A stretch of DNA of 64,000 nt from a phage. Where the stretch lies: sequence record PZ445534.1; one strand, 5' to 3'. The position numbers and the translations under genes were made by a program. Positions 40,405 to 61,038 of the stretch are shown here, piece by piece. Numbering within the stretch: the first letter of the stretch is position 1; every line of letters begins with the position of its first letter. Under the pieces are notes generated by a model. It was not told the DNA's origin, did no database searches, and saw only the letters and a program-made list of their open reading frames with translations.

Positions 40405-41190
40405 ATGGGTATTGTAAAAATCATCAATGGCGATATCTTTGCCGCATTTGATAAAGGTAAGTTTGACATTATTGGTCACGGTTGCAACTGTATGAATTTA
40501 ATGGGTGCAGGTATCGCTGACAAGATTTCTAAACTTTACCCAAAAGCATATGAGACAGATACAGAAGTCTATCTATATGCAGGTGGCATAGGTCACAAAC
40601 CCTGTGAAAATTTACTGGGTAATTTCTCTGTAGCACGTTTAAAACAAGGTCGTATAGCTAACCTTTACACTCAGCTTAAGACTGGTAAAGATGCCCGATA
40701 CAGTGCTTTAGAGTCATCTTTGAAGCAACTTAACAGATACTGTGAAGTTAATCAGTTGAAGAAAGTTGGTTTACCTATGATTGGTGCAGGTATCGGTGGA
40801 CTTGACCCTCAAGCCGTCACAGTTATCATCAATCAGGTGATGAAGAGCGTAGATGTTTATCTATATGTCTATGAAGGAGAGATGTACCATAAGTTACTCT
40901 CAGGTTGGAAGAACTACTGTGAACCAGAATACTTTGCAGGTGTAGCAGTGTTCACAGATAACGCAGTTACCCTCTTCAGACGAAGAAAAGGTAAGATACA
41001 TCAAAGTAACCCTCCGGTTGAAAAGATGTCTCTAAGTAACGCTCTAGTTACCCACCTGTCAAAGAGCAATCACAGAATTGCTGTAACATTTGGTAGTGAT
41101 GCAGAAGCTTATATCTATGCAAGAACTGATGAGGATATTGAGGCAATCTTCTCTTCACCAGAAGTTACCTTCTTAGACGCAAAGAACTAA
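40405..41190 (+). CDS. macrodomain protein (TARG1/OARD1-like ADP-ribose hydrolase fold) with C-terminal extension
   Basis: INGDIFAA...IIGHGCNCMNLMGAGIA and GLPMIGAGIGGLD match TARG1 motifs as recalled (GDLFAC...HCISEDCRMGAGIA and MPRIGCGLDRL). Confidence 0.6.
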   Translation: MGIVKIINGDIFAAFDKGKFDIIGHGCNCMNLMGAGIADKISKLYPKAYETDTEVYLYAGGIGHKPCENLLGNFSVARLKQGRIANLYTQLKTGKDARYSALESSLKQLNRYCEVNQLKKVGLPMIGAGIGGLDPQAVTVIINQVMKSVDVYLYVYEGEMYHKLLSGWKNYCEPEYFAGVAVFTDNAVTLFRRRKGKIHQSNPPVEKMSLSNALVTHLSKSNHRIAVTFGSDAEAYIYARTDEDIEAIFSSPEVTFLDAKN

Positions 41191-41254
41191 GAAACTCTGT
41201 AGGATATTCACAATAGACTAAGCCTTTCTTATCTGGTAAATTTTTCAGGTAAGG

Positions 41255-41500
41255 AGGGCTTTTTCATTTCAGATTTGTGCAGGTAGAGTTCTGTAGAGAA
41301 ATCTATAGAGAAAATTTTGAACTCCAAAGAGAAAATTCATTCTCAAACTGTGCAGGTAATCTCCAAAGAGCTTTTTCATTTTCAAAACGTGCAGACCCCG
41401 CTCAGGTCGGGCAAGAAAAATCATTTTAGAATTGTGCAGGTAGGTTTTTATAGACAGCCAGCCCAACCCCTCTCCCCCTCTTACTCCCCCTCTCCCCAAA
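41255..41500. repeat. four tandem imperfect direct repeats (TTCATTTTCA-N4-6-GTGCAGGTA core) followed by a C-rich tract
   Basis: Repeat copies near 41257, 41330, 41368, 41413; C-rich run CCCAACCCCTCTCCCCCTCTTACTCCCCCTCTCCCC at 41461-41497. Confidence 0.6.
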
Positions 41501-41618
41501 AGTCAAGAGAAAAATTTGTAGCGGATTGAAAAATAATTCTTGATTTGCGTTCTGTTTTGTGGTAGTCGTGCGCACCCGTTTCATTACAGTTTTGCCAAAA
41601 ATATTTTTAAAATTTTTA

Positions 41619-41647
41619 TTGACTCTTTGAACGTGGTTATCTAATAT
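41619..41647 (+). promoter_or_regulatory. sigma70-like promoter, type B cassette (TTGACT-17-TAATAT) followed by 5' leader hairpin
   Basis: -35 41619-41624, -10 41642-41647; hairpin GGAGAGGGAATAACCTTCCCC just downstream. Confidence 0.55.
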
Positions 41648-41713
41648 TTGCATCAACGGAGAGGGAATAACCTTCCCCACTAAATAACTAACCTTAAACT
41701 AGGAGACTCTAAA

Positions 41714-42094
41714 ATGGCATATCGTGCACCTAAATTCATCAATAAAGACAACTTTCGCAACGCACTGGAGAAGGCACTTGATGAGAATTTCAAAGGTAAC
41801 GTTATCGTTGTTCACTCGTTCAATTTCAAGTATGATATCAACGGGAACAAAATCAACCACTACACTGCAACCATGCTAGATGGTACACTATCAAGTGAAA
41901 AAGCCGTACTGAATGCACTAGCAGGACGCGGAAAAGTATTAGTAAGATGTGATAAGAGACGTTATCAAGGCGGCGCATATGGTTACGACGATGCTATTTA
42001 TCATCTTGAAAATATGGGCTATCAAGTAGAAAAAGCTGGGGTATCACAAATCATCGGTAGTGATGGCTACGTGACAATCTTCAAAATTAAATAA
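41714..42094 (+). CDS. early-array small protein 1, hypothetical
   Basis: 126-aa ORF with strong SD (AACTAGGAGACTCTAAAATG). Confidence 0.5.
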   Translation: MAYRAPKFINKDNFRNALEKALDENFKGNVIVVHSFNFKYDINGNKINHYTATMLDGTLSSEKAVLNALAGRGKVLVRCDKRRYQGGAYGYDDAIYHLENMGYQVEKAGVSQIIGSDGYVTIFKIK

Positions 42095-42101
42095 AAAGTA
42101 C

Positions 42102-42130
42102 TTTACAAGGGGCTTATAGTTCGATAAAGT
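42102..42130 (+). promoter_or_regulatory. sigma70-like promoter, type A cassette (TTTACA-17-TAAAGT) overlapping hairpin GGGGCTTA...TAAGCCCC
   Basis: -35 42102-42107, -10 42125-42130; hairpin 42109-42137. Confidence 0.5.
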
Positions 42131-42182
42131 AAGCCCCAGATAAAGAGCTTTACCACTAAATCCTAAATTGGAGAACTTAAAA

Positions 42183-42473
42183 ATGGCTACTATCAAAAAC
42201 GTTGTAATTCCTGCAAAAACTCGTGATGACGCTCGCATTATGGCTAAAAAGTTAGGCGGGAAAGTGGTTGACAACGGAAAACAATCTGCTGTAAGATGGG
42301 GCGTGAAGACTGATAGACAGTTGAAGTTAAAAAATTCACCAATAAACCTTTTTACATGTGTAAACACTATCGGGAAGACAAATGTATACACGAAAAAGGC
42401 ATATATTAGACGCGTAGCCTTAACATCCCCCATTCGTACAATGAGAGGTTATGCAAAACTGAAAATTAACTGA
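42183..42473 (+). CDS. early-array small protein 2, hypothetical basic protein
   Basis: ATG 42183 after GGAGA SD; ORF track starts at upstream TTG. Confidence 0.5.
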   Translation: MATIKNVVIPAKTRDDARIMAKKLGGKVVDNGKQSAVRWGVKTDRQLKLKNSPINLFTCVNTIGKTNVYTKKAYIRRVALTSPIRTMRGYAKLKIN

Positions 42474-42482
42474 TAAAGTACT

Positions 42483-42511
42483 TTACAGGGGGCTTAAAAG
42501 TTGGTATCTTA
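42483..42511 (+). promoter_or_regulatory. sigma70-like promoter, type A cassette (TTTACA-17-TATCTT) overlapping hairpin
   Basis: Hairpin GGGGCTTAA...TTAAGCCCC between -35 and -10. Confidence 0.5.
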
Positions 42512-42561
42512 AGCCCCAGATAAAGAGCTTTACCACTAAATCCTAAACTGGAGATTCAAAA

Positions 42562-43074
42562 ATGAAAACTGTAGACGCTACCTTTGAAGTTGTAAAAGAA
42601 AAATTCACCATTATCTATGAAGCGGTAAATTGCTACGAAGCAAGCCATAACCTTGATAATTGGAAGTTTACAGATGACCATCAAGGCGGCGTGACTGTTA
42701 AAAATCCTAACTATCAGCATAATGCATTTAAATATGCAATCCCTTTGCATTACAGCCTTAAACAGCTTTCAAGTGACTATGCAAAACAAGGCCGGGAAAA
42801 TCCATCGAAAGAGGCTTACACCAGCTTACAGAAAGAACTAGAAAGAGATTTAGAGGCTTCAGAATACAACCTTGCCGCGAAAGTTGTGGATGCAAACGGT
42901 AACACGGTTTTAGAAAGTTTTTATCTTGGTTATGCTTTCGATTGGTGCTATCGTGACGGCGATGATTTAGAGGATAGACTAAAAGAAGAGGTGAACAATT
43001 CAGACGCAGAAACTGAAGTATTAGAACGTTTGGAATCGTTGAAAGACTCAGTGATGAATATCTTTAAGAACTAA
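42562..43074 (+). CDS. early-array small protein 3, hypothetical
   Basis: 170-aa ORF with conserved leader and SD. Confidence 0.5.
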   Translation: MKTVDATFEVVKEKFTIIYEAVNCYEASHNLDNWKFTDDHQGGVTVKNPNYQHNAFKYAIPLHYSLKQLSSDYAKQGRENPSKEAYTSLQKELERDLEASEYNLAAKVVDANGNTVLESFYLGYAFDWCYRDGDDLEDRLKEEVNNSDAETEVLERLESLKDSVMNIFKN

Positions 43075-43084
43075 ATAGCTTTCT

Positions 43085-43113
43085 TTACACGGGGTTATCA
43101 AGCTGGTAGGATA
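43085..43113 (+). promoter_or_regulatory. sigma70-like promoter, type A cassette (TTTACA-17-TAGGAT) overlapping hairpin
   Basis: Hairpin GGGGTTATC...GATAGCCCC keeps pairing via U.G wobble. Confidence 0.45.
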
Positions 43114-43166
43114 GCCCCAGATAAAGAGATTTATCAAATAAAGCCCTTAAACTAGGAGATTCTAAA

Positions 43167-43463
43167 ATGAAATTATCAAATCAAGTGCGTGAAAATCTGA
43201 GCAAATTACTCAACAAAATTGATTTCATTGAAACATCAAGGAATAGTCATGATGTTATGGAATGGTTACACGGCAAAATAAAAGGCCGTCGTGTAGTGAT
43301 TTGCTTATGGAATAGTTGCAGGGAATATAAAAAACCTGTATTGCAAGTTAATATTTATGATGATACTTTTAAAAGTCCTGTAAAGTCTAAAAGCGATTTA
43401 TTAGAATCCTATGAGATAACTGTAAATGGCAAAGTATCACGTAAAGAGGAAACACCATGTTAA
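43167..43463 (+). CDS. early-array small protein 4, hypothetical
   Basis: 98-aa ORF. Confidence 0.5.
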   Translation: MKLSNQVRENLSKLLNKIDFIETSRNSHDVMEWLHGKIKGRRVVICLWNSCREYKKPVLQVNIYDDTFKSPVKSKSDLLESYEITVNGKVSRKEETPC

Positions 43464-43789
43464 TGACTGGTATCACTGCAATCATTGCCATTTTCGCGCT
43501 ATATAAGGCATATAAAGCCTATAATCTAGCAAATAAGGCAATCACACAGCAGGTCAGCAATAACCTTGTAGAGAGCTTTCTAGGGCGTCTCAGTGATGAG
43601 CAAATAAAGCGGCTAGAGATGAGCTTCAGATACAAAGCGAAAACCTATCAGATAAGTGACATCTTCAAAGATGATTTTCAGTTAATCGATGATTATAATT
43701 CACTAATAAATGCTTTAAATATCAGTGACTTAAAAGACTACTACGCTGTAATTGTTCAAGAATTGAGCAAACGAAAACAAAACTGTTGA
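43457..43789 (+). CDS. early-array small protein 5, membrane-anchored hypothetical
   Basis: N-terminal TM ITAIIAIFALY; start overlaps previous stop (ATGTTAATGA). Confidence 0.45.
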   Translation: MLMTGITAIIAIFALYKAYKAYNLANKAITQQVSNNLVESFLGRLSDEQIKRLEMSFRYKAKTYQISDIFKDDFQLIDDYNSLINALNISDLKDYYAVIVQELSKRKQNC

Positions 43790-43814
43790 CACTGGTTTTT
43801 AGATAGATTAAATT
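43786..43814 (+). promoter_or_regulatory. sigma70-like promoter, type B cassette (TTGACA-17-TAAATT)
   Basis: -35 43786-43791, -10 43809-43814, hairpin GGGGAGGGAATGACCTTCCCC at 43825-43845. Confidence 0.6.
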
Positions 43815-43879
43815 ACACATCAACGGGGAGGGAATGACCTTCCCCACTAAATAAAGTCCTTAAACTAGGAGATTCTAAA

Positions 43880-44152
43880 ATGTATACTACTAACAACGGT
43901 CGCACTTTAAATGTCACACTACGTCACTATGTAGATGGTGTCATGCACTTTGAAGACTTACAAGCTGAGCAACATATCTTAGATTGGCAAGTAGCAGGAC
44001 TCCAAAAAACTGCTACGGGATACGGTAAAAAGATTCCAACCAGTTGGAAAGTACACTACGAAGGACGTTTGCGCAGAATTTATCAGGATGTGCAAAGCAA
44101 TAGCGCATCGAGTTACATTATAGTAAAAGGCAAAAAACTGCATTTAATGTAA
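43880..44152 (+). CDS. early-array small protein 6, hypothetical
   Basis: 90-aa ORF. Confidence 0.5.
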   Translation: MYTTNNGRTLNVTLRHYVDGVMHFEDLQAEQHILDWQVAGLQKTATGYGKKIPTSWKVHYEGRLRRIYQDVQSNSASSYIIVKGKKLHLM

Positions 44153-44157
44153 AGTAC

Positions 44158-44186
44158 TTTACATGGGGCTTGGAAGTTGATATCTT
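44158..44186 (+). promoter_or_regulatory. sigma70-like promoter, type A cassette (TTTACA-17-TATCTT) overlapping hairpin
   Basis: Hairpin GGGGCTTGG...TTAAGCCCC with two G.U pairs. Confidence 0.45.
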
Positions 44187-44238
44187 AAGCCCCAGATAAA
44201 GAGCTTTACCACTCAATCCTAAATTGGAGAACTTAAAA

Positions 44239-44643
44239 ATGGCTATTAATAACCGTGAATTATCAATGTTAAAAGCACGTTTGACCGTTAATCGAATCAA
44301 CATTATGACATCATCAGCGCCTGATGAGACATTGCACAACATTATCGGAAAGATTCAAAGCGTTATTTTAGACGTTGAAAACGTAAAAAGTTCATTGGCT
44401 GACGTTGCAGCAGGTATCACGCTAGACGGTGCGCAATATGAAATGTCCGACATGTTAGGCAAATCAAAGGTAATGAATAAAGAGCTTGATTTAAAGATGT
44501 TCCGATTTGCTGTTAAAGTATGGCTATCCGTCGAGTATGACGCTAATTTTGCAATCGCTGATTTCTTTGCCACTTGGTTACAACGTAATTTGACAAATCA
44601 CGATTTTCGTGATGTCTGTGATGCAATTTATGCAGAACTCTAA
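44239..44643 (+). CDS. early-array small protein 7, hypothetical
   Basis: ATG 44239 after GGAGA SD. Confidence 0.5.
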   Translation: MAINNRELSMLKARLTVNRINIMTSSAPDETLHNIIGKIQSVILDVENVKSSLADVAAGITLDGAQYEMSDMLGKSKVMNKELDLKMFRFAVKVWLSVEYDANFAIADFFATWLQRNLTNHDFRDVCDAIYAEL

Positions 44644-44652
44644 AAAATTTTG

Positions 44653-44681
44653 TTGACACTGGTTTTTAGATAGATTAAATT
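44653..44681 (+). promoter_or_regulatory. sigma70-like promoter, type B cassette (TTGACA-17-TAAATT)
   Basis: Near-identical copy of 43786-43845 element. Confidence 0.6.
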
Positions 44682-44744
44682 ACACATCAACGGGGAGGGA
44701 ATGACCTTCCCCACTAAATAAAGTCCTAAACTGGAGATTCTAAA

Positions 44745-44948
44745 ATGGCTATTATTAACGGTTTAACCATTGAAACTACACACATCAAAGATATCAAAGT
44801 TGGCGATATAGTCCTTTCCCACGGCGTAGAAAAAACTGTCACTGCAAAGGATATCAAAGAGGATTCTTTCATGGGTAGGACTCTTTTCGGTGATTCTTAT
44901 TGCTTAGGTTACCTTGCAGTTTTAAAAGTTGTCAAAAATAACAAATAA
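44745..44948 (+). CDS. early-array small protein 8, hypothetical
   Basis: 67-aa ORF. Confidence 0.45.
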   Translation: MAIINGLTIETTHIKDIKVGDIVLSHGVEKTVTAKDIKEDSFMGRTLFGDSYCLGYLAVLKVVKNNK

Positions 44949-44953
44949 AGTAC

Positions 44954-44982
44954 TTTACATGGGGCTTATAGTTCGATAAAGT
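44954..44982 (+). promoter_or_regulatory. sigma70-like promoter, type A cassette (TTTACA-17-TAAAGT) overlapping hairpin
   Basis: Same element as 42102-42137. Confidence 0.5.
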
Positions 44983-45032
44983 AAGCCCCAGATAAAGAGC
45001 TTTACACAATCCTTAAACTAGGAGATTAAAAA

Positions 45033-45281
45033 ATGATGAATTATTTCAATATCCCTGATACCTGCCGACTGTTGACACGAGAAGAAAACTTGGGTAAACC
45101 TTTTCTTTACCACATGCCAGATAACACACCAAAAACTTATAGTTACAATGTCAACCGTTTTACCGCATACGCTGCAAAGAACGGTTATAAGTTGGTCACT
45201 CAAAAAGTAATGCTGGTTACAATCGCTGACGAGGTTCCTACGGTTGCAGTTAAACTAATTTTCTCAAAGAAAGTTAAATAA
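45033..45281 (+). CDS. early-array small protein 9, hypothetical
   Basis: 82-aa ORF. Confidence 0.45.
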   Translation: MMNYFNIPDTCRLLTREENLGKPFLYHMPDNTPKTYSYNVNRFTAYAAKNGYKLVTQKVMLVTIADEVPTVAVKLIFSKKVK

Positions 45282-45286
45282 AGTAC

Positions 45287-45315
45287 TTTACAAGGGGCTT
45301 ATAGTTCGATAAAGT
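45287..45315 (+). promoter_or_regulatory. sigma70-like promoter, type A cassette (TTTACA-17-TAAAGT) overlapping hairpin
   Basis: Same element as 42102-42137. Confidence 0.5.
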
Positions 45316-45365
45316 AAGCCCCAGATAAAGAGCTTTACACAATCCTTAAACTAGGAGATTCAAAA

Positions 45366-45908
45366 ATGAAATGCTATCACGGAACTACTCAAGAAAATTT
45401 CCTCAACCTGATTAATAACGGTGATAAACCATCAGGCGCATGGAATTGTTCGGATATGGACGGCAATTTTTACGTGTATCCAGAAAATAAAATCTATGGC
45501 GACGATGAGGAAGAAATAGCATCAGAGGGCATTCAGCAAGCTCTAGGCAATGCCACTATCACCGCAGCTTTTCAGATGAAGACTCAAAATATTGTTATCT
45601 TAGAACTCGATATTCCAGAGGATGAGCTAAATGATGATTATTCTTGTGATAATATGTCGAGTGTAGCAAGTTTTACAGAGTACTTTGATGTAAATTGGAT
45701 TAAAAAGGTCTATACAACAGAGTTTAACGCTATGTATTCACCTTTTTGTCTTCCTTCATTGGATAACCCAAATTTAAACTATCTTGATGAGCCTCTGGAG
45801 CTTCTTGCTAAAAGTGTCCAACAGTCGGACAGTATTCAGGTTTTTTGTGACATCATGGACACACTAACGGGAAACATCGCAGAAGAGGATTTAAAGAGCT
45901 TTTTCTAA
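45366..45908 (+). CDS. early-array protein 10; possible ADP-ribosyltransferase-like fold (tentative)
   Basis: N-terminal CYHGTT resembles the YHGT NAD-binding motif of H-Y-E class ADP-ribosyltransferases; otherwise unassigned. Confidence 0.25.
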   Translation: MKCYHGTTQENFLNLINNGDKPSGAWNCSDMDGNFYVYPENKIYGDDEEEIASEGIQQALGNATITAAFQMKTQNIVILELDIPEDELNDDYSCDNMSSVASFTEYFDVNWIKKVYTTEFNAMYSPFCLPSLDNPNLNYLDEPLELLAKSVQQSDSIQVFCDIMDTLTGNIAEEDLKSFF

Positions 45909-45940
45909 AAACCTATGCAATCGCCTTATAAACACTGATT

Positions 45941-45961
45941 AGCCCCTCACAGGGGCTTTTA
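45941..45961 (+). terminator. weak terminator-like hairpin
   Basis: AGCCCCT-CAC-AGGGGCT then TTTT. Confidence 0.4.
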
Positions 45962-45974
45962 AGAGGCTTAAATC

Positions 45975-46208
45975 ATGCTTACAACCGTTTATCTTATCCT
46001 TTCTATTTGTAATGGTCATTCATGTGATTTTAAAGGGCTTGATGAGTTTACAGGAAGTAAAGAAAATGCTGTTCAGGTCTGTCAGATAGCAAGGCAAGAC
46101 TACCCCGCCAGTGATGACATACAATGTTACTTTAAGACAGAAGATGAAGATGGTATCTATTTCGATAGTGTAGACGGTCAATATGAAATAATTATAGAAA
46201 AAGACTAG
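45975..46208 (+). CDS. early-array small protein 11, Cys-containing, signal-peptide-like N-terminus
   Basis: 77-aa ORF, N-terminal hydrophobic segment. Confidence 0.4.
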   Translation: MLTTVYLILSICNGHSCDFKGLDEFTGSKENAVQVCQIARQDYPASDDIQCYFKTEDEDGIYFDSVDGQYEIIIEKD

Positions 46209-46234
46209 ACAAGCCTGATAAAAATCTGTAAATT
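46206..46234 (+). promoter_or_regulatory. sigma70-like promoter, type B cassette (TAGACA-17-TAAATT)
   Basis: -10 TAAATT 46229-46234 followed by GGGGAGGGAATGACCTTCCCC hairpin. Confidence 0.5.
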
Positions 46235-46297
46235 ACTAATCAACGGGGAGGGAATGACCTTCCCCACTAAACAAAATCCTAAACTGGAGATTCAAAA

Positions 46298-46639
46298 ATG
46301 GCTTATGTAACCGTAATTACCGATAAAGCTGGCGCATCTTGGTCAACTCAGGTTAGTGATAAGATGTCGCCTATGCAGTGCCTAAAATACTTTGAACAGT
46401 GGAACAAAGGCGAGGACACAAGCCCCTTTCACGTAATGCAGATTATTCATGTAGACAATGAAGGGAAGAAAACAACCCTGAATAGTGAGTACTACGCAAG
46501 CCGTTTTGAAACGAGAAGTAAAGCAATGAAGCTCTTACGTGAGGCCGGATATGGTCACATTGCCGCGATAATCTGGGATGACCTTCTAAAAAGTCAACGT
46601 ATCAGCTATGTAAAGCCTGAAAAAATATTCATCAGTTAA
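46298..46639 (+). CDS. early-array small protein 12, hypothetical
   Basis: 113-aa ORF. Confidence 0.5.
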   Translation: MAYVTVITDKAGASWSTQVSDKMSPMQCLKYFEQWNKGEDTSPFHVMQIIHVDNEGKKTTLNSEYYASRFETRSKAMKLLREAGYGHIAAIIWDDLLKSQRISYVKPEKIFIS

Positions 46640-46768
46640 TCAATAACTTACAAAAAACTTTTAAAAAAGTGTTGACAATACCCCTTGACATTGGTAACTT
46701 TGTTCGAGGGGGTTTATCTAAAAGGGATTCACTTAAAAGATTCTTTATAGATAAGCTTAAAAAATTGC

Positions 46769-46797
46769 TTGCAATCAGCTATCAAAACAAGTAAATT
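46769..46797 (+). promoter_or_regulatory. sigma70-like promoter, type B cassette (TTGCAA-17-TAAATT)
   Basis: Followed by variant hairpin GGGAGGGATGACCTCCCC. Confidence 0.5.
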
Positions 46798-46858
46798 ACT
46801 AATCAACGGGAGGGATGACCTCCCCACTAAATAAAATCCTTAAACTAGGAGAGTCAAA

Positions 46859-47389
46859 ATGAACAAGTTTAAAGCTATCAACTTCATTCGTTCAAATGCT
46901 GTAATGTCAAAACCTGTAAAAGACACATACGAATTTCGCTGCAATGGGGTACACTTTGCAACCATCACTAAGTCAGAAAACGGGGCTTATTACGTACATC
47001 GTCGTAATGTTGCAACCGTTGTAGTCTCTCACTTTATGCAAGCTGTAGCGGAGTTATTACCGTTATTCTTAGAGATTTATCTAGGTGAGTGTAAAAACGT
47101 TCGTAACCACGTTAAAAACCTTTTAAACGGTTATAAAATGGCTTATGAACGTTCTATCAAGTCCTTGAACAAGTTCTATAAAGCCCCTGTAAATACTGTT
47201 TCAATGGCTTACAGTGTAAGCGGTGAGTTGGTTAGCCTCTTCGAAGTAGAAGAAATTGAACTATATGACTCACGTCCTAGCGGTTACTCTAAGACACTGG
47301 GAGAAGGATTATCTTTCAATATCAAGAACTTAGAAAAAACTTTAAAAGATATTGAAAAAGATATTGACGAAACAATAAAAAGTCTGTAA
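46859..47389 (+). CDS. early-array protein 13, hypothetical
   Basis: 176-aa ORF. Confidence 0.5.
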   Translation: MNKFKAINFIRSNAVMSKPVKDTYEFRCNGVHFATITKSENGAYYVHRRNVATVVVSHFMQAVAELLPLFLEIYLGECKNVRNHVKNLLNGYKMAYERSIKSLNKFYKAPVNTVSMAYSVSGELVSLFEVEEIELYDSRPSGYSKTLGEGLSFNIKNLEKTLKDIEKDIDETIKSL

Positions 47390-47392
47390 ATT
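47364..47392 (+). promoter_or_regulatory. sigma70-like promoter, type B cassette (TTGACG-17-TAAATT), overlapping 3' end of previous gene
   Basis: -35 47364-47369, -10 47387-47392. Confidence 0.5.
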
Positions 47393-47457
47393 ACTAATCA
47401 ACGGGGAGGGAATGACCTTCCCCACTAAATAAAACCCTTAAACTAGGAGATTCAAAA

Positions 47458-47706
47458 ATGGCAACTATCCGCGCTACTGTTAACGAGTTCGGTTTTTCCT
47501 CTCTGGATGTTAAATTTGACATTGTAGGCACTGATAACGCCTTTGAAATGGTGAAAGGTCTTATCAGTCAGACCATCAAAGGCTATAATCCTTCTAATGA
47601 GTTCTGGGAGGAAACAAAACAGGAAGTTCTTAAAGAGGGTTATTCTTTTCACTATTGGGGTGAAAAAATTGTCTCCCTGTACTACGACAAAGAAGGCACT
47701 AACTAA
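47458..47706 (+). CDS. early-array small protein 14, hypothetical
   Basis: 82-aa ORF, last gene before non-coding region. Confidence 0.5.
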   Translation: MATIRATVNEFGFSSLDVKFDIVGTDNAFEMVKGLISQTIKGYNPSNEFWEETKQEVLKEGYSFHYWGEKIVSLYYDKEGTN

Positions 47707-47744
47707 TCGACGCAGCGGGGCTAAATAGCCCCAGATACCTTTAC

Positions 47745-47770
47745 AGCCCCTTTCCCATAGGGGCTTTTTT
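47745..47770 (+). terminator. rho-independent terminator
   Basis: AGCCCC...GGGGCT stem plus TTTTTT. Confidence 0.6.
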
Positions 47771-49360
47771 ACGTCTATCCAATCCTCATACAACCCCTTT
47801 CCCTTTCCTTTCCAGAATCTTATCAGACCTTAAAAAGCAATAACTTTACAGCCTTTTACTAAGTCAATTAATTGGCCTTATTAATAAGCCCTTAAACATA
47901 AGCCAATAACCCCAGAAAGGGGGCAACCCATTTAAACGCCATATAAAGCCCTATAACGGCCTTTTTAACCTAACTTAAGGGATTGCATTACCTCACCCTT
48001 AAAAGCCCTTTATAAAGCTTCACAGAGCCTTAAAAGAATCTTATAAGGGTGTAAGCTTTATTATCTCGTTAGCTATCTTGTGAACTACTAAACAACCCCC
48101 TTGATAGTAACTGAAAAGTATGTTATAGGGGCTTTAAAGTTACTTTGAAGTAGCTTAAAAGTTACGTAAATGCTAGCCCCCTTAACATTTTCTTAACAAT
48201 TTCTTAACAATCCCTACATAGTTATGCTTTTAAGGCACTTGTTAGCAACTTGTTAGCCCCTTGTTAAATCTCTGTTAAGACCACGTAAAAGCCTTGTAAG
48301 AGTCTTTGACATAGCCTTAAAAGCTCCTGTAAAGCCCTATAAAGAGCTTTCTGTATAGTTGGGGTGTAACTACTAGGAAGAGACTTAAAAGAGCTTACAA
48401 GGAGCTATAGAGAGCTTTTAAGAGGTATGTTTAAAGAATCACTAGGGATTGGTAACAATACCAATTAAGAAGTAAAGGGAACGATAAGAAAAGAGTAGTG
48501 ACCATGTTAATAGCTTGTTAAAAAGATTAAACACTTGTTAGGAACTTGTTAATTATCTTAACAAAATAACTCTTTAAAATTAACTTCTTAGCTCTTGTTA
48601 GTCATCTGTTAAGATTCTGTAAAGCCTATTCAGCACTTGTTAATTGGTATTGTTACCAATCCCTAGAAAACTGTTAAGCCCTTGTTAGTTCTGTTAAGAA
48701 ACTGTTAAGACTTTTGAAGATTTGTTAAGAGCTTGAGAGAGTTGTTAAGAAATTGTTAAGGATATTTTAAAATTTTGCAAAGTACTTGTAAGGGAGCTGT
48801 TAAGGGCTACCAAGCAGATATACATCTTCTACAGATATTTTTCAGTTCCTTCAAAGACCCTAAAAAATGACTTGATAGTCCTATTTTATAAAAATTTTAA
48901 GATTCTGAATAATTACCTAGACAGTCTTTTAAAAATACAGGTAATAACAGGCTTATAAGATACCTTGTTAGTACCGTGTTAGACCTTGTGAGATAAGGTC
49001 TGTAAAGATATTCCTGTTAAGTTTGTTAAAACAGTCTATATAGAGGCTTAGTAATACCTAGTGAACACCTATAGAGGGTATCATAGCTAACCTAGAGATT
49101 AAGAGGTGTATAGGAGCTTCTAAGAGGGTATAGAGAGATGGTTAAGGTGATTGTATAGGTTGTTAAGAAGGCTTGTTAGAGGGCTTGTTAGAAGGGTTAT
49201 ACAGAGGGCTATTAAGACCACTAGATAGTTACTAAGATACTATATAGTACTATATAACTATATAGAGAGTAAGATTAAGAGGGTTGTTAAGAAGGATAGA
49301 TATTTTGTTCACATATGCTGGTGACCCAGAGGTTGGGACAACCGATGGAATTTTATAAAA
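47771..49360. repeat. 1.6 kb non-coding region dense in short (C/T)TGTTA(A/G)(G/C) repeats with a 24-bp perfect inverted repeat pair
   Basis: No ORF over 60 aa; more than 30 TTGTTAAG/CTGTTAAG/TTGTTAGC copies; GGGATTGGTAACAATACCAATTAA at 48445-48468 and its reverse complement at 48640-48663. Confidence 0.7.
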
Positions 49361-49398: not shown

Positions 49399-50004
49399 TT
49401 AAATCAGACTTTCTAAAACTGTTTTTAGTGATGACTTGGTTGTCTGATAAAAATGAGTGAATCCGTTGTTGTTATCGAATATCTGCATCATAACAGCATC
49501 TCCCTTGATTGGGTACACTCGGATATCATAGTGAAACCCATTAAAGACAGCAGAACCATTACAGAATACACTAAAATCACTTGCTGAGATATACTCTTCA
49601 TGACCTGTGATTTTTATACAGACACCTTTACTCGGTCTCTTAGGGTTGATATCTTCCATAATAGACATACTCTGTCCACCAAGAGATACCATAGTGACCA
49701 CTTTACGGTTCTTCTGTCTGAAGTACATTTTAACCTTCTGCAAGGTGTCTTCATAGAACGGATAAGACTTCTCTACAAAGATTCCTTCAAGTGGCTCTTT
49801 ACCGTTTACAATACCTCTGGTATGGCGTACTGAGAAGATAAGTTGCTCTAGCAGGTCAAGGCTTTCTTCGGATAGTGCTTCCCGAATATCGCTCCAGTCA
49901 AGTACTAGGTAGTTACCTTCAACTTCTTTTAAGTTATCTTTTTCCATAGCTATCACACCATTATCGTAAAACTTGGTAGGCTGGTACTGCAAACTTGTTG
50001 CCAT
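49399..50004 (-). CDS. hypothetical protein
   Basis: 201-aa ORF. Confidence 0.4.
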   Translation of the reverse strand: MATSLQYQPTKFYDNGVIAMEKDNLKEVEGNYLVLDWSDIREALSEESLDLLEQLIFSVRHTRGIVNGKEPLEGIFVEKSYPFYEDTLQKVKMYFRQKNRKVVTMVSLGGQSMSIMEDINPKRPSKGVCIKITGHEEYISASDFSVFCNGSAVFNGFHYDIRVYPIKGDAVMMQIFDNNNGFTHFYQTTKSSLKTVLESLI

Positions 50005-58622: not shown

Positions 58623-58699
58623 AAAGTTTATCTCTGTTTAGCTCAGCTTGGTAGAGCGTTCCGTTTGGGGCGGTAAGGCCGGAGGTTCAAGTCCTCCAA
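58623..58699 (+). tRNA. tRNA-Pro (anticodon TGG)
   Basis: Acceptor CTCTGTT/AACAGAG, D-arm AGCTCAGCTTGGTAGAGC, T-arm GGAGGTTCAAGTCCTCC, encoded CCA; one anticodon-stem mismatch. Confidence 0.7.
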
Positions 58700-58706
58700 C
58701 AGAGAC

Positions 58707-58784
58707 CAAATTAATGTTCCAGTAGACAAAATGGTATAGTCACCACTCTTTCAAAGTGGATATCTGAGGGTTCAAATCCCTTCT
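58707..58784 (+). tRNA. tRNA-Glu (anticodon TTC)
   Basis: Acceptor GTTCCAG/CTGGAAC, anticodon arm CCACT-CTTTCAA-AGTGG, T-loop TTCAAAT, CCA. Confidence 0.7.
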
Positions 58785-58786
58785 GG

Positions 58787-58866
58787 AACGCCAGTTTTGA
58801 CAGAAGACCAATTACAGCAAACTTAATCTACTCATCTGAAAGTTAATCGGACAAAGAAGATATTTG
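58787..58866 (+). repeat. inter-tRNA repeat element copy 1 (ACAGAAGACC-N4-TACAGCAA ... GGTCTGG)
   Basis: Conserved 5' and 3' motifs shared with copies at 58953, 59347, 59437. Confidence 0.6.
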
Positions 58867-58875
58867 GTCTGGTCA

Positions 58876-58951
58876 TTAAGAATTGCGGGTATAGAGAAAG
58901 GGCGTCTCACATGTCTCATTAGCATGGTATCGGCAGGTTCGACTCCTGCAC
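58876..58951 (+). tRNA. tRNA with CAT anticodon (Met/fMet/Ile2), irregular acceptor pairing
   Basis: D-arm GAGA-AAGGGCG-TCTC, anticodon arm CATGT-CTCATTA-GCATG, T-arm GCAGGTTCGACTCCTGC; acceptor 6 of 7 pairs. Confidence 0.5.
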
Positions 58952-58952
58952 C

Positions 58953-59025
58953 CGCCTCCAAATTTACAGAAGACCGTTTACAGCAATATTTATTAAATTT
59001 TTAGCGGAAAAATTGAAAGATACGG
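58953..59025 (+). repeat. inter-tRNA repeat element copy 2
   Basis: ACAGAAGACCGTTTACAGCAA ... ACGGTCTGGT. Confidence 0.6.
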
Positions 59026-59034
59026 TCTGGTAAT

Positions 59035-59108
59035 ACTAAATATGGTTAGGAAGCACATAAGGTATGTGCGGTCGCCTGTTAAGCGAATGGCACAGGGTTC
59101 GAATCCCT
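59035..59108 (+). tRNA. tRNA-Asn (anticodon GTT)
   Basis: Acceptor GGTTAGG/ACTAACC, D-arm GCAC-ATAAGGTAT-GTGC, anticodon loop CTGTTAA, T-arm CAGGGTTCGAATCCCTG; no encoded CCA. Confidence 0.6.
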
Positions 59109-59119
59109 GACTAACCGCA

Positions 59120-59207
59120 AAATTAAATGTGTCGTTATCCCGTAGATGGTAGCGGTGGGGACTGTAAATCCCTTGTCATTGAGACTCGGTAGGTTCGACT
59201 CCTACAC
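59120..59207 (+). tRNA. tRNA-Tyr (anticodon GTA), long variable arm
   Basis: Acceptor GTGTCGT/ACGGCAC, anticodon arm GGGGA-CTGTAAA-TCCCT, T-arm GTAGGTTCGACTCCTAC, CCA. Confidence 0.65.
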
Positions 59208-59212
59208 GGCAC

Positions 59213-59289
59213 ACCAATAAAGGCTATGTAGTTTAACTGGAGAAAATACTCCCCTGTCACGGGAGATGATGTGAGTTCAAGTCTCATCG
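59213..59289 (+). tRNA. tRNA-Asp (anticodon GTC)
   Basis: Acceptor GGCTATG/CGTAGCC, anticodon arm CTCCC-CTGTCAC-GGGAG, T-loop TTCAAGT, CCA. Confidence 0.7.
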
Positions 59290-59346
59290 TAGCCGCCAAT
59301 TTTGAGAGGGCTATTTAGCCCCTCCCTTAAAGAGTTCTTACGAGTA

Positions 59347-59428
59347 TTCTTTAAAGGAGCAGAAGACCAAATACAGCAAGAATGTATGATATTTTCAAGC
59401 CAATTCAATTTTGAAAAATTTAAAACTT
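59347..59428 (+). repeat. inter-tRNA repeat element copy 3
   Basis: CAGAAGACCAAATACAGCAA ... CTTGGTCTGGC. Confidence 0.55.
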
Positions 59429-59436
59429 GGTCTGGC

Positions 59437-59572
59437 TCAACAAATTTACAGAAGACCGTTTACAGCAAAACTTAAACAATCTATTTCTCGGTAAAGAAAA
59501 GGCGAAGGTTCGATTCCTTCACTCGGCAGAGGTCGAGTTGGTGTAATGGTAGCACTTAAGATGATAAACAAC
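59437..59572 (+). repeat. inter-tRNA repeat element copy 4 enclosing tRNA halves in permuted order
   Basis: ACAGAAGACCGTTTACAGCAA ... [anticodon-arm-like + T-arm GAAGGTTCGATTCCTTC + 3' acceptor ACTCGGC] GAG [5' acceptor GTCGAGT + D-arm GTGTAATGGTAGCAC] ... ACGGTCTGGT. Confidence 0.5.
59474..59547 (+). other. tRNA-like segments in 3'-half then 5'-half order (permuted tRNA or recombinant tRNA fragments)
   Basis: 3' acceptor ACTCGGC (59512-59518) is complementary, with one G.U, to GTCGAGT (59523-59529) located 4 nt downstream. Confidence 0.4.
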
Positions 59573-59721
59573 GGTCTGGTAATTATCTTTGCAGTAGCTT
59601 ATGTGGCTAATTATGTCGTCCCATGAGTGCCGATGAATTTCCTTAGCATGATTCTAGATTAGCTTAATAGGAAATGACTCTACAGACCCTTTAGCAAGGT
59701 CTGCGTAGGTTACTGCAAAGA

Positions 59722-59797
59722 TGATTTAATGGAAGTGTAGCAGAATGGTGATGCGGCAGACTTTTAATCTGACAGGCGATGGGTTCGAATCCCTCCA
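59722..59797 (+). tRNA. tRNA-Lys (anticodon TTT)
   Basis: Acceptor GGAAGTG/CACTTCT, anticodon loop CTTTTAA, T-loop TTCGAAT with weak T-stem, CCA; homologous to tRNA at 60957. Confidence 0.55.
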
Positions 59798-59802
59798 CTT
59801 CT

Positions 59803-59879
59803 ACCAAAAATGGTTCAGTCGCAGATAAGGTAATGCAAGGGTTTCATAAGCCCTATGAATGTGGGTTCGATTCCCATCT
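59803..59879 (+). tRNA. tRNA with CAT anticodon (Met/fMet/Ile2)
   Basis: Acceptor GGTTCAG/CTGAACC, anticodon arm AGGGT-TTCATAA-GCCCT, T-loop TTCGATT, CCA. Confidence 0.65.
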
Positions 59880-59881
59880 GA

Positions 59882-59957
59882 ACCTCCAATGCTGTGAAAG
59901 CACATATGGATGTGCATTCGGCTGATAACCGAAAGGCAGAAGGTTCGAATCCTTCTC
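59882..59957 (+). tRNA. tRNA-Ile (anticodon GAT)
   Basis: Acceptor GCTGTGA/TCACAGT, D-arm GCAC-ATATGGAT-GTGC, anticodon arm TTCGG-CTGATAA-CCGAA, T-arm GAAGGTTCGAATCCTTC, CCA. Confidence 0.7.
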
Positions 59958-59972
59958 ACAGTACCAATTTCA

Positions 59973-60001
59973 ATAAAGTTGTTGACATTAAGATGTGACT
60001 A
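59973..60001 (+). promoter_or_regulatory. sigma70-like promoter inside tRNA array (TTGACA-17-TATAGT)
   Basis: -35 59973-59978, -10 59996-60001. Confidence 0.55.
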
Positions 60002-60205
60002 CTTTATAGTAACCTTAGTTTTCGTTGCGTAGCGTCTATTTTGCAAATTTAAAATAAATGCAAACGACAATGTTTTTCTGGCAGTAGCTTGATAGGCTAA
60101 ACACCAGTGAGGTCTTCCAATCCCTCATCAAAGAATTTGGCGTACTCGCCCACGGTATGATTAATAAGGTGGGCATCTTTAAGGGCTTTCTAATAGAGTC
60201 TTTAA

Positions 60206-60287
60206 AGATAATTACGGGGCGTATCTCAGCGGTCTTCTAAACCGCCGTTAACCGAGTAAGTGGAGTATGCGGGTTCGAGTCCTGCCG
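60206..60287 (+). tRNA. atypical tRNA-like gene, possible anticodon TCT (Arg)
   Basis: Acceptor CGGGGCG/CGCCTCG, T-arm GCGGGTTCGAGTCCTGC, CCA; hairpin GCGGT-CTTCTAA-ACCGC; D-arm region not canonical. Confidence 0.4.
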
Positions 60288-60430
60288 CCTCGACCAATTT
60301 AGTTAGCAGATTACTTAGACGACCTAAGCGGGTCTTCCTGTAGGGAGGTGGTCTGTATCTCATGTTTTCCAGAACATGTAAATAATCTGAGAAGGGGCTT
60401 TACAGTGTTGAGATAATACGGTAAGCTTCG

Positions 60431-60513
60431 AATTATAGTATGGGACGATGTTAAGACTCTAAGGCATGAGCAACGGCCTCCAAAACCGTTTCAAAGGGGT
60501 TCAACTCCTCCGT
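60431..60513 (+). tRNA. atypical tRNA-like gene, possible anticodon CCA (Trp)
   Basis: Perfect acceptor ATGGGAC/GTCCCAT, T-loop TTCAACT, CCA; enlarged D region. Confidence 0.4.
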
Positions 60514-60526
60514 CCCATGCCAAAGT

Positions 60527-60949: not shown

Positions 60950-60956
60950 GGTGTAC

Positions 60957-61032: not shown

Positions 61033-61038
61033 CCTGTA

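What the first reader, a model, noticed from the sequence alone, without database searches (positions are those of the whole stretch)
41590..47770. Array of 14 unrelated small genes, each behind one of two alternating promoter-hairpin-leader cassettes
Between 41714 and 47706 every gene (67-180 aa, no detectable similarity to one another) is preceded by a conserved 80-100 bp module. Type B (6 copies) is TTGACA-17-TAAATT, then hairpin GGGGAGGGAATGACCTTCCCC, then leader ACTAAATAAA...CCTAAACTGGAGATTCAAAAATG. Type A (6 copies) is TTTACA-17-TAAAGT/TATCTT/TAGGAT with hairpin GGGGCTTA...TAAGCCCC spanning the spacer and -10, then AGATAAAGAGCTTTAC and the same leader and SD. Highly expressed, individually promoted small diverse genes are typical of phage host-takeover and anti-defence loci, and the modular cassettes suggest gene shuffling by recombination between conserved leaders.
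Basis: seen in the sequence. Interest (0 to 1): 0.8.

Follow-up and report, generated by a model that had tools for sequence, protein, structure and literature searches.

The report
Shuffling promoter-hairpin gene cassettes, Felix O1-like phage
This Felix O1-like phage carries 14 unrelated, dispensable small genes, most behind one of two repeated promoter-plus-hairpin modules that also serve as recombination joints for swapping genes between related phages; this design is already known from T4-like phages, so the array is a well-documented new example rather than a new kind of system.

Summary
The window is a Felixounavirus. At 41619-47765 (+ strand) lie 14 mutually unrelated genes (67-180 aa). 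Twelve follow an 84-97 nt module, six type A and six type B. g5 and g11 have none, and the two types are interspersed, not alternating.

Across about 60 related loci, 323 of 344 distinct modules keep a 17-nt spacer between a -35 box and a TAnnnT -10 box, across about 45 unrelated spacer families. In type A the -10 T and A are invariant inside an otherwise variable hairpin loop. Hairpins are conserved by geometry and compensatory change. Type A wraps the -10 box. In the type B family the hairpin starts 10-11 nt after -10, about +4 of the predicted mRNA. None has a U-tract.

Homology breakpoints with relatives cluster in the modules (51 of 72, p=2e-17). Module type follows the upstream gene, which places crossovers in the shared leader.

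The closest known system is the PeSL cassette of T4-type phages. The same design occurs in Erwinia and Pseudomonas relatives.

All 17 homologous array genes of phage SUSP1 were "Not Fit" in a published knockdown screen. g10 is predicted to have an ADP-ribosyltransferase fold.

No transcript map exists, so promoter activity and hairpin function remain inferred.

The parts
41220..41270 (+). Canonical intrinsic terminator upstream of the array (Felix O1 t13 homologue)
   Evidence: 17-bp stem followed by TTTCATTT. It matches t13 in Table 2 of PMC3185647.
41619..41713 (+). Module B, the first promoter of the array: TTGACT-17-TAATAT, hairpin 41658-41678, leader and SD
41714..42094 (+). g1, 126 aa, phrog_4495, unknown function
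42095..42182 (+). Module A: TTTACA (42102)-17-TAAAGT (ends 42130); composite stem-loop 42095-42152; predicted +1 about 42138; leader and SD
42183..42473 (+). g2, 96 aa, phrog_5089; sub-threshold BRCT hit
42474..42561 (+). Module A: TTTACA-17-TATCTT with TGn extended -10
42562..43074 (+). g3, 170 aa, phrog_4190 (Felix O1 ORF16, RT-PCR maximum at 5 min)
43075..43166 (+). Module A variant: TTTACA-17-TAGGAT; stems GGGGTTAT/ATAGCCCC and CTTTCTTTA/TAAAGAGAT carry compensatory changes
43167..43463 (+). g4, 98 aa, phrog_4401
43457..43789 (+). g5, 110 aa, phrog_4375; no module; overlaps the stop of g4 and always travels with g4
43786..43879 (+). Module B: TTGACA-17-TAAATT (the g5 stop TGA lies inside the -35 box), hairpin 43825-43845, leader and SD
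43880..44152 (+). g6, 90 aa, phrog_3436
44153..44238 (+). Module A: TTTACA-17-TATCTT
44239..44643 (+). g7, 134 aa, phrog_4327 (Felix O1 ORF20, maximum at 5 min)
44653..44744 (+). Module B: TTGACA-17-TAAATT, hairpin 44692-44712; 94 of 97 nt identical to the module before g6
44745..44948 (+). g8, 67 aa, phrog_3623
44949..45032 (+). Module A: TTTACA-17-TAAAGT; left copy of the 84-nt direct repeat flanking g9
45033..45281 (+). g9, 82 aa, phrog_9030; present in only a minority of relatives
45282..45365 (+). Module A: right copy of the direct repeat flanking g9 (82 of 84 nt identical, 67-nt exact run)
45366..45908 (+). g10, 180 aa, phrog_3303; predicted ADP-ribosyltransferase fold
45941..45960 (+). 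Hairpin AGCCCCT-CAC-AGGGGCT followed by TTT: a weak terminator-like element between g10 and g11, conserved in relatives
45975..46208 (+). g11, 77 aa, phrog_4640; no module; always follows g10
46206..46297 (+). Module B: TAGACA-17-TAAATT (the g11 stop TAG forms the first 3 nt of the -35 box), hairpin 46245-46265
46298..46639 (+). g12, 113 aa, phrog_4318 (Felix O1 ORF21, maximum at 5 min)
46769..46858 (+). Module B variant: TTGCAA-17-TAAATT, shortened hairpin GGGAGG-GATGA-CCTCCC at 46808-46824
46859..47389 (+). g13, 176 aa, phrog_4725 (Felix O1 ORF22, maximum at 5 min)
47364..47457 (+). Module B: TTGACG-17-TAAATT lying inside the 3' end of g13 (stop TAA forms the first 3 nt of the -10 box), hairpin 47403-47423
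47458..47706 (+). g14, 82 aa, phrog_4559; homologue of Felix O1 Gp23, which was detected in virions by mass spectrometry
47717..47746 (+). Type A remnant: GGGGCT-AAAT-AGCCCC followed by AGATACCTTTACAG, with no -35 box and no leader
47745..47772 (+). Canonical intrinsic terminator closing the array (Felix O1 t23 homologue)

Best explanation
The locus is a hyperplastic early-region array of accessory genes. It is organised by PeSL-like composite cassettes.

Each module contains four elements: (i) the stop codon of the upstream ORF; (ii) a host sigma-70 promoter with a 17-nt spacer; (iii) a conserved G/C-clamped stem-loop; (iv) a common A/U-rich leader with a GGAG Shine-Dalgarno sequence and the ATG.

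In type A the -35 box is TTTACA. The -10 box (TGnTAnnnT) sits in the loop and 3' arm of a 19-bp composite stem-loop. Transcription is predicted to start just after the stem, at AGAUAAAGAGCUUUAC. The hairpin would therefore exist only in RNA reading through from upstream, as a 3' structure of the preceding message acting as a stabiliser or attenuator.

In the type B family the -35 box is TTGnnn and the -10 box is TAAATT-like. The hairpin starts 10-11 nt after -10, about +4, so it would form a 5'-terminal stem-loop on the new mRNA. That arrangement is known from the ompA leader to protect against 5'-end-dependent decay.

The modules are 80-98% identical to one another, so they act as portable homology. 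Recombination in the shared leader deletes, inserts, duplicates or swaps units of the form [leader-ORF-stop-promoter-hairpin]. Every recombinant automatically keeps a promoter and a ribosome-binding site.

Shown here: the repeats, the promoter geometry and its conservation, the stem covariation, the fixed hairpin placement, the breakpoint clustering, and the linkage of module type to the upstream gene. Inferred: promoter activity, transcription start positions, what the hairpins do at the RNA level, and the biological roles of the proteins.
For: Repeat copies against chance.

Promoter geometry in 344 distinct modules from about 60 loci: the spacer is exactly 17 nt in 323, and at least 9 of 12 consensus matches occur in 73.5% against 13.9% of coding-sequence controls, across about 45 spacer families.

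Type A, 103 distinct cores: CTTTACA is invariant. The loop 'TA' is invariant, the next three positions carry only 0.14-0.45 bit, and T follows in 102 of 103. G at -14 occurs in 90 of 103.

Type A stem-loop: 97.6% of cells are paired, against 33-57% when partners are slid. Four pairs show compensatory changes, in 56 cells against 13.9 in shuffles (0 of 500 shuffles reach this).

B-family hairpin: it lies at offset 10-11 with MFE of -6 or lower in 92 of 112 distinct modules, against 1.2% of shuffles. There are 69 distinct hairpin sequences.

Breakpoints: 51 of 72 distinct homology ends fall in modules that cover 23.3% of positions, p=2e-17.

Linkage: H(type|upstream gene)=0.04 bit against H(type|downstream gene)=0.24 bit, out of 1.0 bit. 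The same gene family sits behind A or B in different phages. There is also an order swap of g8 and g9, a tandem duplication of g2 and a translocated x9. g9 is flanked by an 82/84 direct repeat.

The same design occurs in Erwinia phiEa21-4, with compensatory stem changes, and in Pseudomonas PaoP5.

The published PeSL description matches the anatomy. Felix O1 RT-PCR detects the homologous transcripts, many with a maximum at 5 min. SUSP1 homologues are all 'Not Fit'.
Against: No transcription start or transcript end mapping exists for any Felixounavirus, so no promoter here is experimentally shown. The generic promoter scan finds 29 sites in the region against 21 +/- 4 in shuffles; only positional consistency and conservation make the case.

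Type A -10 hexamers match the consensus at only 4 of 6 positions. CTTTA of the -35 region is also part of the lower stem, so its invariance has two possible causes.

Covariation comes from related sequences and perhaps only 2-3 lineages. The alignment used had its loops trimmed to a common length.

The hairpins lack U-tracts, so the terminator role claimed for PeSLs is doubtful here.

Some homology ends at gene edges could reflect fast divergence of orthologous ORFs rather than recombination.

Felix O1 RT-PCR places some array genes (ORF17, 19, 23) at 25 min, and timing does not track module type.
Confidence: 0.75

Rival explanations
1. The array is one long transcript that starts at the first promoter (41619). 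The repeated stem-loops are RNA processing or stabilising sites, RNase III- or RNase E-type like the R sites between T7 early genes. They would cut the polycistron into stable monocistronic mRNAs. The promoter-like hexamers would be incidental.
For: Type A folds into a 19-bp composite helix with a 3x3 internal loop (dG about -23 kcal/mol, z about -3.5). The helix has compensatory changes. The sequence GAGC|UUUAC resembles the RN|WUU RNase E preference; this last point is from my own knowledge and is untested.
Against: A processing structure does not explain the invariant T and A followed by three free positions and then T inside a variable loop, nor G at -14, nor the exact 17-nt spacing from TTTACA. 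It also does not explain why B-family modules with completely unrelated spacers keep the -35/17/-10 geometry. B hairpins have only 4-8 bp, too short for RNase III. Processing and promoter functions are not mutually exclusive.
Confidence: 0.1
2. The stem-loops are transcription terminators or attenuators that insulate each cassette from upstream read-through. This is the function claimed for PeSL stem-loops.
For: Arbiol et al. showed that one PeSL stem-loop reduced downstream lacZ about as strongly as rrnB T1. GenBank records for ASO1A and KhF1 annotate the B hairpins as rho-independent terminators.
Against: The 8 nt after the hairpins contain on average 1.0 T (type A) or 1.8 T (type B). The two canonical terminators that bracket the array have 5-6. 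The consensus scan reports no terminator inside the array. The KhF1 annotations are on the wrong strand. In type B the hairpin lies downstream of its own start site, so it would terminate its own transcript.
Confidence: 0.2
3. The palindromic words AAAGTACTTT and AAAGAGCTTT are operators for a phage or host DNA-binding protein that switches type A promoters off or on. The 'lower stem' would then be a by-product of two palindromic sites.
For: AGATAAAGAG is invariant in 103 cores and is kept in the Erwinia phage. That is more conserved than pairing alone requires. The two sites bracket the -35 box and about +5 to +14.
Against: The compensatory change at columns 5/54 (G-C to U-A in 14 sequences) keeps pairing between the two sites while breaking each site's own palindrome. 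Exact copies of the word are essentially confined to the modules, and there is no separate operator array. No regulator gene was identified.
Confidence: 0.1
4. The repeats are selfish mobile DNA, such as MITE- or REP-like elements or homing-endonuclease targets, that have spread through the intergenic gaps and have no regulatory role.
For: There are many near-identical copies in one region. Two group I introns elsewhere in the window show that mobile DNA is present in this genome.
Against: All copies have one orientation and an exact register: stop codon at the 5' edge and SD-ATG at the 3' edge. There are no terminal inverted repeats, target duplications or transposase. The design is conserved across genera while the sequence diverges.
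Confidence: 0.03

Closest known systems
PeSL (promoter-early stem-loop) cassettes of T4-type phages RB49/phi1, PST/T4 and nt-1/KVP40 (Arbiol et al. 2010, PMC2839356; Comeau et al. 2014, PMC4122927)
   Same: Repeated intergenic motifs of about 100 bp in a hyperplastic region of small ORFans. The element order is upstream stop codon, AT-rich stretch, sigma-70 -35/-10, a G/C-rich stem-loop between or over the boxes or just after -10, then SD and ATG. Indels and replacements between close relatives are bounded by the motifs.
   Different: The phage lineage is different (Ounavirinae) and there is no sequence similarity to the T4-type motifs. Only two sharply defined classes occur here, against five loosely defined positional subclasses. 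Copies are much more alike (up to 98%). [quoted passage not shown] The hairpins lack U-tracts. Promoter activity, terminator activity and mini-circles were shown for PeSLs and not here.
5'-terminal stem-loop mRNA stabilisers (ompA 5' UTR type; established E. coli RNA-decay biology, from my own knowledge)
   Same: The type B hairpin begins about 3 nt from the predicted 5' end. This is the geometry that blocks 5'-end-dependent RNase E/RppH attack.
   Different: The start site is only predicted here and no half-life data exist. The same hairpin is also present in read-through RNA.
RNase III processing sites between T7 early genes (from my own knowledge)
   Same: Repeated intergenic helices of about 20 bp with an internal loop lie between small early genes. 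After cleavage they would leave a 3' hairpin on the upstream message.
   Different: T7 sites carry no promoters, because early genes there share promoters A1-A3. The type A helix here contains a conserved promoter signature, and no cleavage data exist.
Integron gene cassettes (attC arrays)
   Same: A tandem array of unrelated small genes is separated by repeated, structured recombination sites. Content varies between close relatives.
   Different: Integrons use a site-specific integrase and a single common promoter. Here there is no integrase, each unit carries a promoter, and exchange is presumably by homologous recombination.

Membership tests
PeSL-type composite promoter/stem-loop cassette | The repeated motif contains a sigma-70-like -35/-10 pair | tested here: met
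   All 12 modules have a 17-nt spacer. 323 of 344 distinct relatives keep it. The -10 T, A and T positions are invariant in type A.
PeSL-type composite promoter/stem-loop cassette | A stable stem-loop lies between or over the boxes, or just downstream of -10 | tested here: met
   Type A spans the spacer and -10 box. Type B starts 10-11 nt after -10. Pairing and covariation are supported.
PeSL-type composite promoter/stem-loop cassette | Bounded by the upstream stop codon and the downstream SD/ATG, and located upstream of small ORFans in a variable region | tested here: met
   Stop codons lie inside TAAAGTAC, the -35 box or the -10 box. A GGAG leader is present. None of the 14 proteins passes a Pfam cut-off.
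PeSL-type composite promoter/stem-loop cassette | Indel and replacement boundaries between related genomes coincide with the motifs | tested here: met
   51 of 72 breakpoints fall in modules, p=2e-17. Gene content is polymorphic while gene order is conserved.
PeSL-type composite promoter/stem-loop cassette | Promoter activity demonstrated in vivo | not testable with these tools
   No TSS map or reporter data were found for Felixounavirus. Only RT-PCR timing and data from the relative PAK_P3 are available.
PeSL-type composite promoter/stem-loop cassette | The stem-loop acts as a terminator or attenuator | tested here: inconclusive
   The structure is present but there is no U-tract (1.0-1.8 T per 8 nt, against 5-6 in the flanking terminators).
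PeSL-type composite promoter/stem-loop cassette | Circular excision products (mini-circles) | not testable with these tools
   This needs outward-facing PCR or read data. The substrate exists: an 82/84 direct repeat flanks g9.
Intrinsic (rho-independent) terminator | A G/C-rich hairpin immediately followed by a U-tract | tested here: not met
   Module hairpins are followed by AGATAAAG or ACTAAATA. Only 41220-41270 and 47745-47772 qualify.
Any described RNA family (Rfam 15) | Covariance-model match | tested here: not met
   No match in the array at gathering score or at E up to 1.
ADP-ribosyltransferase fold (for g10 only) | Structural similarity to ART domains | tested here: met
   [not shown]
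ADP-ribosyltransferase fold (for g10 only) | Catalytic H-Y-E (or R-S-E) residues in the right places | tested here: inconclusive
   H5-G6-T7, Y36/Y38 and E80 are invariant or nearly so in the family. They were not superposed on a known active site. There is no Pfam or PDB sequence hit.

The most novel reading that the evidence does not exclude
The hairpin-wrapped -10 box could be a structural promoter class for host sigma-70 RNA polymerase. This arrangement is conserved from Felixounavirus to Erwinia Kolesnikvirus and Pseudomonas Pakpunavirus while the sequence changes. Extrusion of the hairpin or cruciform on supercoiled, just-injected DNA, or behind a polymerase reading through from the upstream cassette, would present -11A unpaired in the loop. 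That would make firing of each promoter depend on supercoiling or on transcription of its upstream neighbour, a relay along the array.

A related unexcluded reading concerns messages bounded by two type A modules. They would have complementary 5' (AGAUAAAGAGCUUUA) and 3' (UAAAGUACUUUA) ends and could form protective panhandles.
Probability: 0.1. Interest if true: 0.75.

Novelty: new member of a known kind. Interest (0 to 1): 0.42.

Why it matters
The PeSL concept is that regulatory cassettes double as recombination joints. This result extends it from T4-type phages to a second, therapeutically important myovirus lineage: Felix O1-like phages of Salmonella, E. coli and Shigella, with design-level conservation in Erwinia and Pseudomonas relatives.

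It refines the mechanism. The promoter half travels with the preceding gene and the joints lie in the shared leader.

It gives an interpretation to repeats that the 2010 Felix O1 genome paper only listed.

It also has practical uses. It marks a dispensable, naturally modular locus where payload genes could be inserted in engineered Felix O1-type phages. It supplies a set of compact promoter/5'UTR parts. It points to about 20 accessory gene families as candidates for host-range or counter-defence screens, including a predicted ADP-ribosyltransferase next to a Macro-domain gene.

Tried and rejected
- Rfam at gathering score and at E up to 1 gave nothing in the array.
- No array protein passes a Pfam cut-off. 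g2 has a sub-threshold BRCT hit, E 0.004.
- PHROGs assigns only 'unknown function' families.
- PDB sequence searches for g10, g13 and g3 gave nothing meaningful.
- The operator hypothesis for AAAGnnCTTT was rejected on motif distribution and on the nature of the compensatory change.
- A correlation between module type and Felix O1 RT-PCR timing was looked for and not found.
- One literature search was badly specified and returned irrelevant papers, and one errored. 'PeSL' plus 'Felix' returned only unrelated papers.
- My first module detector was too strict and left many modules unclassified. A promoter-geometry classifier replaced it.
- A plain MAFFT alignment of type A cores misaligned the 3' arm because loop lengths differ. 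An arm-anchored alignment with loops trimmed to 12 nt was used for pair counting instead.
- The PaoP5 locus L063 was not readable from Python, so only about 1.2 kb of it was read by eye.

Full report
**Identity of the window.** Megablast of 41500-47800 finds 257 phage records, nearly all Felixounavirus (Felix O1-like myoviruses of E. coli, Salmonella, Shigella and Citrobacter). The best hits are about 93% identical over 95-97% of the query. Many others cover only 40-80% in several pieces, which already points to variable content. The array begins after a Macro-domain gene (40405-41190, Pfam PF01661, E 1e-7) and a canonical terminator (41220-41270). It ends at a second canonical terminator (47745-47772). 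These two correspond to t13 and t23 of Felix O1.

**Check of the observation.** The sequence shows 14 + strand genes of 67-180 aa.
- Exact or near-exact copies of the three module elements occur only between 41.6 and 47.5 kb of the 64-kb window, all on the + strand. None is expected by chance.
- Twelve genes are preceded by a module. There are six type A modules (before g2, g3, g4, g7, g9, g10) and six type B modules (before g1, g6, g8, g12, g13, g14).
- g5 overlaps the end of g4. g11 follows a hairpin plus TTT and has its own SD. Neither has a module.
- The order is B A A A - B A B A A - B B B, so the types are interspersed rather than alternating.
- Only two B modules have exactly TTGACA-17-TAAATT. 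The others have TTGACT, TAGACA, TTGCAA or TTGACG as the -35 box, and one has TAATAT as the -10 box.
- Upstream stop codons are built into the modules. TAA is part of the conserved TAAAGTACTTTACA of type A. The g5, g11 and g13 stops lie inside the next -35 or -10 box.
- The 14 proteins are unrelated to one another (best pairwise E about 0.5). They fall into 14 different PHROG families of unknown function, and none passes a Pfam cut-off.

**Are these promoters?** The generic scan is not significant on its own, with 29 sites against 21 +/- 4 in shuffles. The argument therefore rests on comparison.
- I collected about 60 related loci from IMG/VR and GenBank. I annotated ORFs and clustered the proteins.
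- Among 344 distinct upstream regions the best -35/-10 pair has a spacer of exactly 17 nt in 323.
- The -35 hexamers are TTTACA, TTGACA, TTGCAA, TTGACT, TAGACA, TTGACG and TTGATT. The -10 hexamers are TAnnnT.
- At least 9 of 12 consensus matches occur in 73.5% of modules, against 13.9% of coding-sequence controls.
- The spacers fall into about 45 families with no resemblance to one another. Geometry, not sequence, is what is conserved.
- For type A, an unbiased column profile of 103 distinct cores shows CTTTACA invariant. Inside the otherwise variable hairpin loop, 'TA' is invariant, the next three positions carry 0.14-0.45 bit, and T follows in 102 of 103. G at -14 occurs in 90 of 103, which is an extended -10. 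A hairpin alone does not predict this pattern. A sigma-70 -10 element does.

**The hairpins.**
- Folding shows that type A is more than GGGGCTTA...TAAGCCCC. The flanks AAAGUACUUUA and UAAAGAGCUUU pair as well. The result is a 19-bp composite stem-loop with a 3x3 internal loop (dG about -23 kcal/mol, z about -3.5).
- On an arm-anchored alignment of 95 distinct sequences, 97.6% of cells are paired, against 33-57% with slid partners. Four pairs carry compensatory changes, in 56 cells against 13.9 in shuffles (0 of 500 shuffles reach this). The sequences are related and the changes probably represent few events, so this is supportive rather than decisive.
- In the B family the hairpin sequence varies widely, with 69 distinct hairpins. 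These include unrelated stems such as GGGC-AAGCAA-GCCC and GGGAGG-CAATAA-CCTCCC.
- Even so, the B-family hairpin starts 10-11 nt after the -10 box with MFE of -6 or lower in 92 of 112 distinct modules, against 1.2% of shuffles.
- With a start site about 7 nt after -10, this is a stem-loop at about +4 of the mRNA. That is the geometry of known 5' stabilisers. This step is inference.
- In type A the predicted start, near AGAUAAAG, lies just 3' of the upper stem. The structure can therefore form only in read-through RNA from the upstream cassette.
- Neither hairpin type has a U-tract. The 8 nt after the hairpin contain 1.0 and 1.8 T on average, against 5-6 at the two flanking terminators. They fail the definition of intrinsic terminators, although some GenBank records annotate them as such.
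- No Rfam family matches, even at E up to 1.

**Shuffling.**
- Arrays in relatives keep one backbone order but differ by presence or absence of single units: x9-x2, x16, g2, g3, x14, g8, g9, x15, x29, x34, x27 and x5.
- There are also occasional rearrangements. g8 and g9 are swapped in L016 and L047, g2 is tandemly duplicated in L044, and x9 is relocated in L044.
- Internal ends of BLASTN homology between this window and the relatives fall within the intergenic modules +/- 5 nt in 51 of 72 distinct cases (143 of 198 in total). Those positions make up 23.3% of the array (binomial p=2e-17). Many of the remaining ends lie within about 15 nt of a start or stop codon. Right-hand ends pile up at the ATG codons. 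Left-hand ends pile up in the leaders or at stop codons.
- Module type is almost fully predicted by the upstream gene (conditional entropy 0.04 bit) and less well by the downstream gene (0.24 bit), out of 1.0 bit.
- In every informative case but one the type follows the upstream neighbour:
  - g1 after the Macro gene is B in 11 of 11, and after x2 or x16 it is A in 14 of 14.
  - g10 after g8 or g9 is A in 25 of 25, and after g7 it is B in 4 of 4.
  - The same holds for g8, g9 and g12.
- Hence the promoter-hairpin half is linked to the preceding ORF, whose stop codon it contains.
- In this window g9 is flanked by 84-nt direct repeats with 82 identities and a 67-nt exact run. The modules before g6 and g8 are 94 of 97 nt identical. 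Both are ready substrates for deletion or excision.

**Depth of conservation.**
- Erwinia phage phiEa21-4 (Kolesnikvirus) has an equivalent array right after its Macro 'phosphatase' gene. Its type A homologue is CTTTACA-C-GGTGTTTA...TAGTAT-AAGCACC-AGATAAAGAGCTTT. The stem has changed from GGGG/CCCC to GGTG/CACC, which is compensatory.
- phiEa21-4 has two further module types in which the -10 box again sits inside a G/C-clamped hairpin.
- Pseudomonas phage PaoP5 shows both geometries with unrelated sequences.
- Distant blastn finds only module-sized matches in 29 Erwinia phages.

**Comparison with what is known.**
- The 2010 Felix O1 genome paper listed the 57-bp and 39-bp repeats between genes 15/16, 19/20, 18/19 and 20/21 without interpreting them. 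It stated that promoter usage and temporal control were unknown.
- The PeSL cassettes of T4-type phages match the anatomy point by point: upstream stop codon, AT-rich stretch, sigma-70 boxes, a stem-loop between or over the boxes or just after -10, then SD and ATG, located in hyperplastic regions of ORFans, with indels bounded by the motifs.
- I found no paper that applies the PeSL concept to Felix O1-like phages.
- The differences are the lineage, the lack of sequence similarity, two sharply defined classes, the leader-located joints and the missing U-tracts.

**What the genes are.**
- Felix O1 RT-PCR shows ORF16, 20, 21 and 22 (g3, g7, g12, g13) maximal at 5 min, and ORF17, 19 and 23 (g4, g6, g14) maximal at 25 min. 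Timing has no relation to module type.
- In the genome-wide CRISPRi-ART screen of SUSP1 (Suspvirus, Ounavirinae) the array is agp095-agp111. All 17 genes are 'Not Fit'. This fits accessory, conditionally useful genes. One caveat is that the guides target ribosome-binding-site regions that the modules share.
- The g14 homologue (Felix O1 Gp23) was detected in virions by mass spectrometry.

**Verdict.** The roles of the hairpins and of the proteins remain inferred. The array is a clear new member of a known kind of system, not a new kind.

Noticed in passing
[not shown]
   Followed up: partly
window 40405-41190: The 261-aa protein annotated as 'phosphatase' in relatives has a Macro domain (PF01661, E 1e-7). 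It sits immediately upstream of the array in Felixounavirus, Suspvirus (agp094) and Erwinia phiEa21-4 (gp14).
   Followed up: partly
window 47780-49350: This is a 1.6-kb non-coding stretch (35% GC) between the array terminator and the minus-strand gene at 49399-50004. It is packed with (C/T)TGTTA(A/G) words: TGTTAAGA occurs 11 times here out of 22 in the whole window. It also has six CTATATAG copies and CTTAAAAG words. It looks like an iteron or protein-binding array, perhaps an origin or a packaging or partition site.
   Followed up: no
window 41260-41500: Between the upstream terminator and the first array promoter lie 4-5 copies of TCATTT(C/T)A(G/A)A(T/A)(T/C)TGTGCAGGTA and a C/T-rich tract (CCCAACCCCTCTCCCCCTCTTACTCCCCCTCTCCCC, 41463-41498). 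Some records call small ORFs across these repeats, and those ORFs are probably spurious.
   Followed up: no
window 47458-47706 (g14): The last array gene is the homologue of Felix O1 Gp23. That protein was found in virions by mass spectrometry and its transcript peaks at 25 min. This is unexpected for a gene sitting in an early accessory array.
   Followed up: partly
window 8494-8776 (-) and 25605-25986 (+): Two group I introns were detected by Rfam (61.7 and 54.6 bits).
   Followed up: no
window 58632-63553: A cluster of 24 tRNA genes lies on the + strand.
   Followed up: no
L044 (IMGVR_UViG_2974556886), L016 and L047: L044 has a tandem duplication of g2 and a copy of x9 relocated to a position after g11. 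In L016 and L047 the order of g8 and g9 is inverted. These are direct examples of cassette rearrangement.
   Followed up: partly
L062 (Erwinia phage phiEa21-4, NC_011811 8262-18771): The homologous array gp15-gp31 uses three module types in which the -10 box lies inside a G/C-clamped hairpin. Its common leader uses AAGGA instead of GGAG as the SD.
   Followed up: partly
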